The position numbers and the translations under genes were made by a program. Below are positions 52,836 through 53,627 of a DNA stretch of 64,000 nucleotides, piece by piece. Below the pieces are notes generated by a model. The model was not told the origin of the DNA. It worked only from the letters and a program-made list of their open reading frames with translations, and did no database searches. Source of the stretch: a virus. Taxonomy: Duplodnaviria; Caudoviricetes. Location: positions 32,001 through 96,000 of IMG/VR virus record IMGVR_UViG_3300020049_007737. One strand, written 5' to 3'. Numbering within the stretch: position 1 is the stretch's first letter; each line of letters begins with the position of its first letter.

Positions 52836-52844
52836 ATATTTATA
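52836..52844 (+). promoter_or_regulatory. ATATTTATA putative late promoter of the tRNA/Pth cassette
   Basis: Same motif found before about 20 late genes. Confidence 0.6.
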
Positions 52845-52865
52845 ACCATAAAAACAATAAAGTAT

Positions 52866-52901
52866 ATGAACAAGTAGATTCAAACCCGCGGTGATCCATG
52901 A
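52866..52901 (+). other. Amber-interrupted leader ORF M-N-K-(TAG)-I-Q-T-R-G-D-P-(TGA)
   Basis: ATG AAC AAG TAG ATT CAA ACC CGC GGT GAT CCA TGA after an A-rich initiation region; first ATG downstream of the promoter. Confidence 0.55.
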
Positions 52902-52960
52902 TTTGTTAATTCAATCGACCTTAAACAAACAACAATTAATTAACAAACAACAAAAAAATC

Positions 52961-53266
52961 ATGGAAAACAAAAAACAAATCAAACAAGCAATAAGAGAAG
53001 CAGCAAAAACATTAGCCGCTGAGCAACCAGTTCTAAAAAATCAAAGAAAAACAGTTCATATTAAAGGTGAAAGAACAATAGAACGTTGGACAGCATTGTT
53101 CAAACATTCAAGCAATCGAATCACATTAAATCAACTGTATGCTGCTCAATCATTTTTAAGAGGCAGAGATATTGAAACTATCAAAAAACAACACGGTGAG
53201 TGGCATAGTGAAATTTCAATAAACAAAACAATTGAAAAATATGAGCAGATTATTCGTACTAGTTAA
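52961..53266 (+). CDS. Basic hypothetical protein, partner of the Pth2-like gene
   Basis: 101 aa; LYAAQSFLRGR; overlaps the next gene. Confidence 0.65.
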   Translation: MENKKQIKQAIREAAKTLAAEQPVLKNQRKTVHIKGERTIERWTALFKHSSNRITLNQLYAAQSFLRGRDIETIKKQHGEWHSEISINKTIEKYEQIIRTS

Positions 53267-53540
53267 TAATGAGATGCCTTTAGCATACCAAGGAGTACAA
53301 GCAGGACATGCTGTTGCTCAATGGTTGATAGAACATCCAAATCAAACTTGGAATAACAATTATTTAATCTATTTGGGAGTTTCTGAAAAGGAACTCCACA
53401 AATGGGTTACTAAATTAAAATACAAGAATGATGATTATTCTATATTTATAGAACCGGACTTAGACAACAAGATTACAGCTATTGCTTGTTTAGCAGGTGA
53501 CAAGAACATCTTTAAAAAACTTAAGTTAATGGGTACTTAA
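53241..53540 (+). CDS. Peptidyl-tRNA hydrolase 2 (Pth2)-like protein
   Basis: LFVLV...GVQAGHA...LIYL...FIEPDLDNKITAIA matches the Pth2 pattern (QxxHA; D..T). Confidence 0.75.
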   Translation: MSRLFVLVNNEMPLAYQGVQAGHAVAQWLIEHPNQTWNNNYLIYLGVSEKELHKWVTKLKYKNDDYSIFIEPDLDNKITAIACLAGDKNIFKKLKLMGT

Positions 53541-53550
53541 CCCATAAACT

Positions 53551-53627
53551 GGCCTAGGATACGGAAGTGGCACCGTTCTCAGACTCTAAACTGATGGTTG
53601 CGGGTTCGAACCCCGTCTAGGCTACCA
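53551..53627 (+). tRNA. Atypical suppressor-type tRNA, anticodon CUA (amber) in an 8-nt loop
   Basis: Acceptor GGCCTAG/CTAGGCT + A + CCA; D arm ACGG-AAGTGGCA-CCGT; anticodon arm TCAG-ACTCTAAA-CTGA; T arm GCGGG-TTCGAAC-CCCGT. Confidence 0.85.

What the first reader, a model, noticed from the sequence alone, without database searches (positions are those of the whole stretch)
52836..53627. Self-contained amber cassette: TAG-interrupted leader ORF + unknown protein + Pth2-like hydrolase + CUA tRNA
Seen: about 800 bp inserted among the que genes carry their own ATATTTATA promoter. They contain a leader ORF with an in-frame TAG (52866-52901), a basic 101 aa protein, a Pth2-like peptidyl-tRNA hydrolase and the only tRNA I found, whose anticodon matches that TAG. 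No other gene in the window needs TAG read-through, so this is not genome-wide recoding. Established: Pth/Pth2 recycle dropped-off peptidyl-tRNA, and leader peptides control downstream genes through ribosome position. Inference: this is a dedicated translation circuit in which the tRNA decodes the leader codon of its own operon. It could be a feedback sensor of tRNA charging/integrity or release-factor activity that controls the hydrolase, or a counter to host defences that attack tRNAs or termination. I know of no described system with this layout.
Basis: partly seen in the sequence, partly recalled or inferred. Interest (0 to 1): 0.92.

Follow-up and report, generated by a model that had tools for sequence, protein, structure and literature searches.

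The report
Stop-codon-gated leader sensing suppressor tRNA
A phage operon starts with a tiny leader whose ribosome-stalling end is reached only if its early UAG stop is read through by the operon's own UAG-reading tRNA. It looks like a natural, apparently undescribed switch that turns on two genes, one resembling a peptidyl-tRNA hydrolase, only when stop-codon read-through is working.

Summary
Window 52836-53627 holds:
- a phage promoter-like motif;
- a 12-codon leader, MNK-UAG-IQTRGDP-UGA;
- helical protein A (101 aa);
- protein B with a PTH2 (peptidyl-tRNA hydrolase 2) fold;
- a CUA tRNA.

The tRNA is non-canonical. It has an 8-nt anticodon loop and is missed by ARAGORN and by Rfam's threshold, but covariation in relatives supports it. 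The 149-kb phage genome uses the standard code.

A, B and a suppressor tRNA form a conserved phage module, seen in 87 of 90 loci. A mini-leader precedes A in most. Its in-frame stop matches the tRNA's anticodon: UAG with CUA (47 of 55 distinct loci, none with another stop), UGA with UCA, UAA with UUA. After the stop comes V/I and then PP, RGPP, RSPP or RGxP, which resemble known arrest motifs. Synonymous codon changes show the leader is translated.

In this clade the leader's Pro-stop codons pair with A's start codon, and a compensatory change supports the helix.

Most likely read-through leads to a stall that unmasks A's start, so A and B are made. What A and B do is unknown. I found no paper describing this. 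Other agents of this scan noted the same design on other genomes.

The parts
52836..52845 (+). Phage promoter-like motif ATATTTATAA, 21 nt before the leader's ATG
   Evidence: Occurs 18 times on the + strand and 0 times on the - strand of the 149-kb genome. Of these, 13-14 copies are intergenic and lie 14-45 nt upstream of ORF starts. The motif is kept in L091, L092 and L122, and in L118 with one difference.
52866..52901 (+). Leader mini-ORF: M N K, UAG (52875-52877), I Q T R G D P, UGA. The arrest-like RGDP motif is at 52887-52898.
   Evidence: Conserved in L091, L092, L122/123, L008 and L118/119, with synonymous changes in the Thr, Arg and Gly codons. The UGA-gated form occurs in L120/121 beside a UCA tRNA. 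The family-wide rule is shown.
52895..52904 (+). 5' arm of the anti-start helix. It covers the last base of the Asp codon, the Pro codon, the UGA stop and 3 further nt.
   Evidence: RNAalifold finds a 10-bp helix with 52956-52965. L120 carries a compensatory G-C to A-U change that accompanies its TGA-to-TAA stop change. RNAduplex gives -13.1 kcal/mol, within the best 1% of control windows. The helix is also in the single-sequence minimum-free-energy fold.
52956..52965 (+). 3' arm of the anti-start helix. It contains gene A's AUG (52961-52963).
52961..53266 (+). Gene A: a 101-aa basic helical-hairpin protein with a conserved loop QRKTVxxxGERT. Function unknown.
   Evidence: Homologues sit directly upstream of B in most loci. 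The AlphaFold model has pLDDT 91 and is helical. There is no specific Pfam, PHROG or PDB match.
53244..53540 (+). Gene B: a 98-aa protein with a PTH2 (peptidyl-tRNA hydrolase 2) fold. Its start overlaps A's end by 23 nt.
   Evidence: The AlphaFold model has pLDDT 93. Foldseek's top PDB hits are 2zv3, 1q7s, 3erj, 1xty and 1wn2, all PTH2. It matches phrog_3668 'hydrolase' at 6e-9. Three of 37 relatives hit PF01981, best 4e-8. Invariant residues are H22, A25, W36, F68, E70, D72 and T78.
53551..53627 (+). Non-canonical tRNA gene with anticodon CUA (53586-53588). Features: an 8-nt anticodon loop (53583-53590), a G1-U72 pair, a 3-nt acceptor/D connector and an encoded CCA.
   Evidence: It is homologous to canonical suppressor tRNAs at the same position in L008, L118, L120, L117 and L010. 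In the acceptor, anticodon and T arms, 94% of cells are paired and 11 of 17 pairs show changes on both sides. It is missed by ARAGORN at default settings and falls below Rfam's cut-off.

Best explanation
The cassette is one copy of a widespread phage module: a leader, helical protein A, PTH2-fold protein B and a suppressor tRNA.

**How the leader most likely works**
- The leader is a translated sensor of nonsense suppression.
- A ribosome that starts on it meets UAG at codon 4.
- If release factor wins, the ribosome leaves 18 nt before a helix in which the leader's Pro-stop codons pair with gene A's start codon. A and the overlapping B then stay off.
- If the cassette's CUA tRNA reads the UAG, the ribosome goes on to R-G-D-P-stop. 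This is a SecM/RAPP-like arrest context and a poor termination context.
- The ribosome pauses there, and its footprint melts the helix and frees A's AUG.
- A and B are therefore made only when the tRNA is expressed, charged and able to outcompete the release factor.

**What is shown and what is inferred**
- Shown by comparison: the module, the leader's translation, the match between leader stop and anticodon, and the helix.
- Inferred: the stall, the direction of control, and the roles of A and B.

My best guess for A and B is peptidyl-tRNA recycling or ribosome rescue made necessary by read-through. The main alternative is a brake on the suppressor tRNA itself.
For: **Module**
- 87 of 90 loci holding a B homologue have a same-strand suppressor tRNA, mostly 4-370 nt downstream. 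Two of the three exceptions are contig ends.
- An A-like ORF abuts B in most loci.

**Stop matches anticodon**
- Among distinct upstream regions, 47 of 55 CUA loci have an in-frame TAG leader ending in PP, R[GSA]P or RGxP.
- None of these has the same layout with TGA or TAA. Shifting the frame by +1 or +2 gives 0-1 hits.
- All 3 UCA loci have TGA.
- L120/121 has UGA, with the terminal stop switched to TAA.
- UUA loci, including Lak-C1, have TAA.

**Translation of the leader**
- Arg changes CGC to AGA, Gly changes GGT to GGA or GGC, and Thr changes ACC to ACA. All are synonymous in frame 0.
- A regex for stop-R-G-x-P-stop gave 14 hits on the + strand of 653 kb. Thirteen lie 350-380 nt before B, and there were 0 hits on the reverse strand.

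**Helix**
- It is 10 bp with a compensatory change.
- RNAduplex gives -13.1 kcal/mol, within the best 1% of controls. Fifteen of 54 loci rank below 0.05.

**Arrest motifs**
- RAPP, RGPP and RAGP stall ribosomes at the peptidyl-transferase centre and need only short N-terminal parts (PMC10951233, PMC7897499, PMC12992588).

**Other support**
- The tRNA arms covary.
- B has the PTH2 fold.
- The promoter motif sits at the usual distance before the leader's ATG.
Against: - No experiment shows read-through, stalling or control.
- RGDP is not one of the tested arrest cores. RAPG, for example, fails in some contexts.
- The window's tRNA fails two standard detectors and has an 8-nt anticodon loop whose decoding is unknown.
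- The leader region's folding energy is only modestly better than shuffles, z = -1.3.
- The start-masking helix is clear in this clade and some others, but not in all lineages. The median control rank is 0.15.
- The genome uses the standard code, so why it needs a suppressor tRNA is unexplained.
- B's active-site residues differ from canonical PTH2.
Confidence: 0.72

Rival explanations
1. Relic circuit. In this standard-code lineage the tRNA has decayed (a 1-nt deletion in the anticodon arm) and no longer reads UAG. The leader then simply keeps A and B off, or responds to some other source of read-through such as a co-infecting phage or low RF1.
For: ARAGORN and Rfam reject the gene. It has an 8-nt loop and a T-T mismatch where relatives have G-U. 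No gene in the genome needs TAG decoding.
Against: The same odd anticodon arm is kept in four distinct sequences (window, L091, L092, L122) whose B proteins are only 74-99% identical. Acceptor changes preserve pairing, and the leader's TAG and RGDP are intact. The leader region is more conserved than gene A's coding sequence.
Confidence: 0.12
2. Quadruplet decoding. The 8-nt loop presents UCUA and reads UAGA as one codon, which shifts the ribosome to the +1 frame.
For: The leader context is UAG-A and the loop contains UCUA (earlier notes e1-5778676 and e1-5735959).
Against: - The conserved R-G-x-P-stop lies in frame 0, and the synonymous changes are synonymous only in frame 0.
- The +1 frame is open to 53022 in the window but closes early in L122, by inspection.
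- UAG-A also occurs in loci whose tRNAs have ordinary 7-nt loops, such as L118, L013 and L076.
Confidence: 0.06
3. There is no read-through. The leader is only a 3-codon upstream ORF ending at UAG, and the conserved downstream block is an RNA element (a start-masking hairpin or protein-binding site) unrelated to the tRNA.
For: The block 52881-52909 is conserved at the nucleotide level among close relatives and takes part in RNA pairing.
Against: The stop type follows the anticodon in three classes, and non-cognate stops and shifted frames give 0-1 hits. L118 keeps the peptide (R-G-S-P) while changing most of the nucleotides. Some leaders have two in-frame cognate stops.
Confidence: 0.05
4. The sensor is the same, but the output is a brake. 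B, perhaps guided by A, hydrolyses aminoacyl- or peptidyl-suppressor-tRNA, so that read-through induces its own inhibitor and holds suppression at a set level.
For: B has the PTH2 fold. B lies directly next to the tRNA whatever its anticodon. A sensor that drives an enzyme acting on tRNA esters is the classical layout of a homeostat (inference).
Against: Recoded phages need strong suppression, and ten distinct B genes in CUA loci themselves contain an in-frame TAG. There is no evidence on substrate specificity.
Confidence: 0.25

Closest known systems
RAPP-like regulatory arrest peptides (SecM RAGP; ApdA, ApdP RAPP; ApcA RAPG; RGPP variants). Sources: PMC7897499, PMC10951233, PMC12992588.
   Same: Both are short upstream ORFs ending in an Arg-x-Pro-rich core just before or at the stop. 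The stalled ribosome is thought to open an mRNA structure that masks the next gene's start. Relatives of this leader carry exact RGPP (L056, L058, L126).
   Different: The known peptides are long and usually secreted, and their arrest is released by Sec/YidC activity. Here the peptide is about 11 residues. Access to the arrest core is gated by an in-frame stop codon that needs a dedicated suppressor tRNA. The window's own core is RGDP, which has not been tested.
prfB (RF2) autoregulation through an in-frame UGA (textbook knowledge)
   Same: An early in-frame stop codon serves as a gauge of the balance between termination and an alternative decoding event, and this sets the output of a translation-factor gene.
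   Different: prfB uses a +1 frameshift within the gene itself and senses RF2. Here a separate leader, a suppressor tRNA and an arrest motif are used.
Leader-peptide attenuators (trpL, hisL, tnaC) and T-box leaders (textbook knowledge)
   Same: A cis-acting leader reads the state of a particular tRNA or amino acid and controls downstream genes.
   Different: Those systems sense charged sense-codon tRNAs or free Trp, and mostly act on transcription termination. Here the sensed codon is a stop and the tRNA is encoded in the same operon.
Phage 'code change modules' (suppressor tRNA + aaRS + release factor) in recoded phages (Borges et al., 10.1101/2021.08.26.457843)
   Same: Both are clusters of translation-related genes around a phage suppressor tRNA, and the same A-B module occurs in recoded phages such as Lak.
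   Different: That work does not mention a PTH2-like gene or a stop-gated leader. This genome is not recoded and encodes no RF domain.
Engineered UAG-gated leader-peptide switch (reviewed in PMC6412442, section 6)
   Same: A TAG placed in a leader peptide makes downstream expression depend on an amber suppressor tRNA.
   Different: That switch is man-made, uses the tna leader and Rho termination, and responds to an unnatural amino acid.
Archaeal/eukaryotic Pth2 (PF01981; PDB 2zv3, 1xty, 1q7s)
   Same: Same alpha/beta fold, with TM about 0.75. The 'Q-x-x-H-A' helix start and the acidic strand-loop align.
   Different: There is no Pfam-level match. The Gly-Lys before the helix is missing, and D-A-G-x-T is replaced by E-P-D-L-D/N. 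The protein is always paired with protein A and a suppressor tRNA.

Membership tests
PTH2 peptidyl-tRNA hydrolase (PF01981) | PTH2 alpha/beta fold | tested here: met
   The model has pLDDT 93. Foldseek ranks 1-13 are PTH2 or PTH2-like structures, with probability 1.0 and TM 0.70-0.78.
PTH2 peptidyl-tRNA hydrolase (PF01981) | Sequence match to the Pfam model above its cut-off | tested here: not met
   The window's protein has no PF01981 hit even at E<=10. Only 3 of 37 relatives match, best 4e-8. A profile search against the PDB hits one peptidyl-tRNA hydrolase at E 0.059.
PTH2 peptidyl-tRNA hydrolase (PF01981) | Catalytic residues (Lys, Asp and Thr of the S. solfataricus enzyme, from memory) and hydrolase activity | tested here: inconclusive
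   The alignment puts invariant E70 at the catalytic Asp position. There is no Lys at the GK position, and the Thr position is D/N/G. Activity cannot be tested here.
RAPP-like ribosome arrest peptides | C-terminal core R-(A/G)-(P/G)-P at or next to the stop | tested here: inconclusive
   The window has R-G-D-P-stop, and SecM has R-A-G-P. Relatives have RGPP, RSPP, RGSP, RPP or plain PP-stop. RGDP itself is untested in the literature I read.
RAPP-like ribosome arrest peptides | Located upstream of a regulated gene whose initiation region is masked by a structure that the stalled ribosome would open | tested here: met
   There is a 10-bp helix between 52895-52904 and 52956-52965, which includes A's AUG. 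It has a compensatory change.
RAPP-like ribosome arrest peptides | Demonstrated elongation or termination arrest | not testable with these tools
   This needs toeprinting, in-vitro (PURE) translation or ribosome profiling.
tRNA (Rfam RF00005) | Score at or above the gathering threshold, or detection by ARAGORN at default settings | tested here: not met
   It scores 14 bits against a cut-off of 29. ARAGORN finds it only with a relaxed threshold, and then with a 2-base 'anticodon'.
tRNA (Rfam RF00005) | Cloverleaf arms supported by covariation, plus a T-loop and acceptor end | tested here: met
   Across the clade, 94% of cells are paired, against at most 46% when the partner is slid. Eleven of 17 pairs have changes on both sides, and the acceptor and T arms are 100% paired. 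The T-loop reads TTCGAAC and the 3' end is ACCA.
tRNA (Rfam RF00005) | Seven-nucleotide anticodon loop | tested here: not met
   The 4-bp stem 53579-53582 / 53591-53594 closes 8 nt. Relative to L008, L118 and L120, one A is missing on the 3' side.
Stop-codon-recoded phage (code 15) | Many genes interrupted by in-frame TAG, and coding density rising when TAG is read as sense | tested here: not met
   Coverage is 88.4% under code 11 and 88.9% with TAG as sense. Nine of 207 ORFs end in TAG, and none is split by one.

The most novel reading that the evidence does not exclude
A and B are a previously unknown, suppression-induced translation-control pair. In this reading, a helical-hairpin adaptor and a PTH2-fold hydrolase act on the suppressor tRNA, or on ribosomes that have read through stops. 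Together with the stop-gated arrest leader they would form a 'governor' that lets phages run a second genetic code, or controlled read-through, in a standard-code host. A naturally 8-nt-looped tRNA would work as the amber decoder in this lineage.
Probability: 0.3. Interest if true: 0.95.

Novelty: new variant of a known kind. Interest (0 to 1): 0.85.

Why it matters
**Open question in phage recoding.** How recoded phages switch and control their genetic code is unresolved. Published surveys list suppressor tRNAs, a few aaRS genes and release factors, but no regulatory logic. This module supplies a concrete, testable logic: a cis-acting gauge of read-through efficiency wired to two conserved proteins of unknown role.

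**Reach of the module.** It occurs in recoded megaphages such as Lak and in standard-code phages like this one. It may therefore mark the step at which a phage acquires and tames a suppressor tRNA.

**Arrest peptides.** It would extend arrest-peptide regulation to a new input, nonsense suppression, and to very short peptides of about 11 residues.

**Practical use.** It offers natural parts for genetic-code-expansion circuits. It also flags a class of phage suppressor tRNAs that standard tRNA finders miss.

Tried and rejected
- **A-B complex prediction:** no verdict (score 0.02), so it is not evidence either way.
- **Fold of protein A:** Foldseek against the PDB gave nothing at E<=0.001. VIA-wide gave only generic helical hairpins at Z<=7.8, within background for helical proteins. 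The Atlas gave weak HTH-like rows with TM<0.5. No function can be drawn from these.
- **Amino-acid identity of the suppressor tRNAs:** comparison with 257 other phage tRNAs gave no consistent isoacceptor.
- **Exact scan of viral contigs for the leader core:** 0 hits. The leader is conserved as a peptide and a layout, not as DNA.
- **Local recoding test on 6-kb loci:** too noisy in tRNA-rich regions to classify the phages.
- **Proteins encoded between B and the tRNA in other lineages:** no Pfam family.
- **Release-factor domain in this genome:** none found.
- **Stenotrophomonas phage RAS14 as a cultured example:** its B-like domain is fused into a 261-aa protein with no tRNA nearby, so it is not the module.
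- **Conserved block 52881-52909 as a tRNA 3' fragment or attachment site:** rejected, because L118 keeps the peptide but not the nucleotides.
- **Thioesterase gene at 53629-54030 as part of the module:** rejected, because it is absent from L008, L118, L120 and L122.

Full report
**What is in the window**

It holds a motif ATATTTATAA, then a 12-codon mini-ORF (52866-52901) with TAG as its fourth codon. Next come a 101-aa ORF (A, 52961-53266) and a 98-aa ORF (B, 53244-53540) that overlaps A by 23 nt. Ten nucleotides after B lies a 77-nt tRNA-like gene ending in CCA (53551-53627).

Pfam places the neighbours as follows:
- Upstream: QueD-like (PTPS) and QueE-like (radical SAM).
- Downstream: a 4HBT thioesterase, a thioredoxin, a phosphoribosyltransferase, GTP cyclohydrolase I and a dCTP-deaminase-like gene.

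**Genome context**

The window lies in a 149,049-bp, 30% G+C virus record, 93% complete by CheckV. Of 207 ORFs, 204 are on the + strand. Stops are TAA 176, TGA 22 and TAG 9. Reading TAG, or TGA, as sense adds under 1% coverage, so the phage uses the standard code. It encodes no RF-1 domain.

The motif ATATTTATAA occurs 18 times on the + strand and never on the - strand. Thirteen to fourteen copies are in the 3% of the genome that is non-coding, 14-45 nt before ORF starts. It is therefore a credible phage promoter element, and the leader's ATG sits where a first gene normally would.

**Protein B**

The window's protein has no Pfam hit, but it matches phrog_3668 'hydrolase'. An AlphaFold model built from 37 relatives has pLDDT 93. 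Foldseek's best matches are all PTH2 structures: 2zv3, 1q7s, 3erj, 1xty and 1wn2, with TM about 0.75.

Three more divergent relatives reach PF01981, best 4e-8. The family profile's only PDB hit is a peptidyl-tRNA hydrolase. Invariant residues are H22, A25, W36, F68, E70, D72 and T78, and the canonical GK and DAGxT motifs are altered. B is therefore a divergent PTH2-fold protein, and its activity is unproven.

**Protein A**

A is a confident helical hairpin (pLDDT 91) with an invariant loop Q-R-K-T-V...G-E-R-T between two long helices. Neither its fold nor its sequence matches anything specific.

**The tRNA**

ARAGORN at default settings and Rfam at gathering score find no tRNA in the window or the genome. 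RF00005 gives 14 bits against a cut-off of 29. By inspection and by alignment to relatives, the gene has:
- a 7-bp acceptor stem with G1-U72;
- a 3-nt connector to the D stem, shared with L008, which ARAGORN accepts;
- a normal T arm;
- an anticodon stem of 4 bp closing 8 nt, with U-CUA-A in the normal relative positions.

Compared with canonical relatives, one A is missing on the 3' side of the loop. Across nine clade members the acceptor, anticodon and T arms are 94% paired. Eleven of 17 pairs change on both sides, and slid controls reach at most 46%. The odd anticodon arm is shared by the window, L091, L092 and L122, whose B proteins are 74-99% identical. L091's acceptor changes keep pairing. 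I read it as a real but non-canonical amber-type tRNA.

**The module is conserved**

B has more than 200 relatives, none named, including in Lak megaphages. In 90 fetched loci, 87 carry a same-strand suppressor tRNA near B, usually immediately downstream. Most have anticodon CUA, several have UCA, and the Lak-like ones have UUA. Two of the three exceptions end within 250 nt of B. An A-like ORF abuts B in most loci.

Only two of about 185,000 prokaryote species genomes hold B. Both hits are on contigs of 410-427 kb, and one of them again has the CUA tRNA and a TAG leader with RGPP.

**The leader rule**

Close relatives keep the leader:
- L091 and L092 have it identical to the window.
- L122 has one synonymous Thr change.
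- L008 has different codons before and just after the TAG.
- L118 changes Arg from CGC to AGA and Gly from GGT to GGA, and reads R-G-S-P.

So the peptide, not the DNA, is conserved. L120/121 has a tRNA with anticodon UCA. There the internal stop is TGA and the terminal stop has become TAA.

More distant loci show the general form: M, then 1-7 residues, the stop, V or I, then 1-10 residues, then PP, RGPP, RSPP, RGSP, RSPG or RGPD. Some leaders have two in-frame stops.

Counting distinct upstream regions gives the following:
- 47 of 55 CUA loci have the in-frame TAG form.
- None has the same layout with TGA or TAA, and shifted frames give 0-1 hits.
- All three UCA loci have TGA.
- The UUA loci, including the published Lak-C1 genome, have TAA followed by V-T-L-S-R-G-S-P.

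A stricter pattern, stop-(1-8 codons)-R-G-x-P-stop, hits 14 times on the + strand of 653 kb. Thirteen hits lie 350-380 nt before B, and there are none on the reverse strand.

**Output of the sensor**

RNAalifold on five clade members pairs 52895-52904 with 52956-52965. The first arm covers the last base of the Asp codon, the Pro codon, the stop and 3 further nt. The second arm contains A's AUG. In L120 the change of stop from TGA to TAA is matched by C to U before A's AUG.

The duplex energy is -13.1 kcal/mol and ranks within the best 1% of control windows. Fifteen of 54 loci rank below 0.05. The helix is also in the single-sequence minimum-free-energy fold, although the fold's z-score is only -1.3.

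A ribosome released at the TAG ends 18 nt before the helix. A ribosome held at Asp/Pro/stop would cover the helix's 5' arm. RAPP, RGPP and RAGP cores arrest ribosomes at the peptidyl-transferase centre and need only short upstream peptides (PMC10951233, PMC7897499, PMC12992588). Asp-Pro-stop as a poor termination context is my own recollection and was not checked.

**Mechanism and its limits**

The best reading is: read-through by the cognate tRNA, then arrest, then unmasking of A's start, then translation of A and of the overlapping B. The tRNA lies downstream on the same transcript. The circuit therefore reports whether the tRNA works and delays A and B until it does. All of this is inferred from comparison.

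What A and B do is open. Peptidyl-tRNA recycling or ribosome rescue fits three observations:
- B has the PTH2 fold.
- tmRNA genes lie near the module in some loci.
- Ten distinct B genes in CUA loci themselves contain an in-frame TAG.

A brake on the suppressor tRNA is the main alternative. Why a standard-code phage keeps the module is unexplained.

**Rivals**

I considered a relic tRNA, UAGA quadruplet reading, and an untranslated RNA element. Each is disfavoured for the reasons given under the rival explanations.

**Novelty**

Full-text searches found no paper that links a PTH2-like gene or a stop-gated leader to phage suppressor tRNAs. The nearest man-made analogue is a TAG-gated tna leader switch.

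Notes of this scan show that other agents reached the same reading on at least 47 other genomes. I reached mine before seeing those notes. They are not independent evidence.

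Noticed in passing
window 52708-52821: A 37-aa Cys-rich mini-ORF (C-x4-C-x-C ... C-x2-C) lies between the QueE-like gene and the promoter motif. 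L091 and L092 lack it, and there QueE runs straight into the motif. It is a small lineage-specific insertion.
   Followed up: partly
whole genome (G000); in the window at e.g. 1100, 2873, 10597, 16349, 21802, 27441, 31302, 46588, 56903: ATATTTATAA occurs 18 times on the + strand and 0 times on the - strand, mostly 14-45 nt before ORF starts. It is probably this phage's promoter element.
   Followed up: partly
window 50010-50627: This ORF has a NUMOD1 domain (E 1e-4) and a GIY-YIG-like N-terminus seen by eye. It is probably a homing endonuclease, inside the nucleotide-metabolism block.
   Followed up: partly
L125 (Prevotella phage Lak-C1, MK250029.1) 1734-2060: This published, unannotated Lak megaphage carries the module with an ochre-type tRNA (UUA) and a TAA-gated leader. 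Lak phages are reported as TAG-recoded, and a UUA anticodon could read both UAA and UAG by wobble.
   Followed up: partly
L002, L003, L006: Phage-encoded tmRNA genes lie 1-3 kb from the A-B-tRNA module. This fits a ribosome-rescue theme.
   Followed up: no
L001 3300-3540: There is a tandem duplication of the promoter region and of the first codons of gene A. In this locus the TAG-gated leader is the tail of the truncated first copy.
   Followed up: no
L022, L037, L039, L044-L046, L050, L069, L090: The B genes beside CUA tRNAs in these loci contain an in-frame TAG. In those phages B itself needs suppression to be made.
   Followed up: partly
window 54887-55684 and 13855-16341: These are two of only nine ORFs in the genome that end in TAG. 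The first is 1.3 kb downstream of the tRNA, and read-through would add 16 residues. Outside the window, one TAG-ending ORF (genome 115199-115510) would gain 65 residues.
   Followed up: no
window 53627-53629: The thioesterase gene's ATG starts 2 nt after the tRNA's encoded CCA. tRNA processing would therefore cut the polycistronic RNA right at that gene's start.
   Followed up: no
L124 (Stenotrophomonas phage RAS14) 2015-2800: A B-like domain (31% identity) forms the C-terminus of a 261-aa protein. There is no tRNA nearby, but a valyl-tRNA synthetase gene lies 1 kb downstream.
   Followed up: partly
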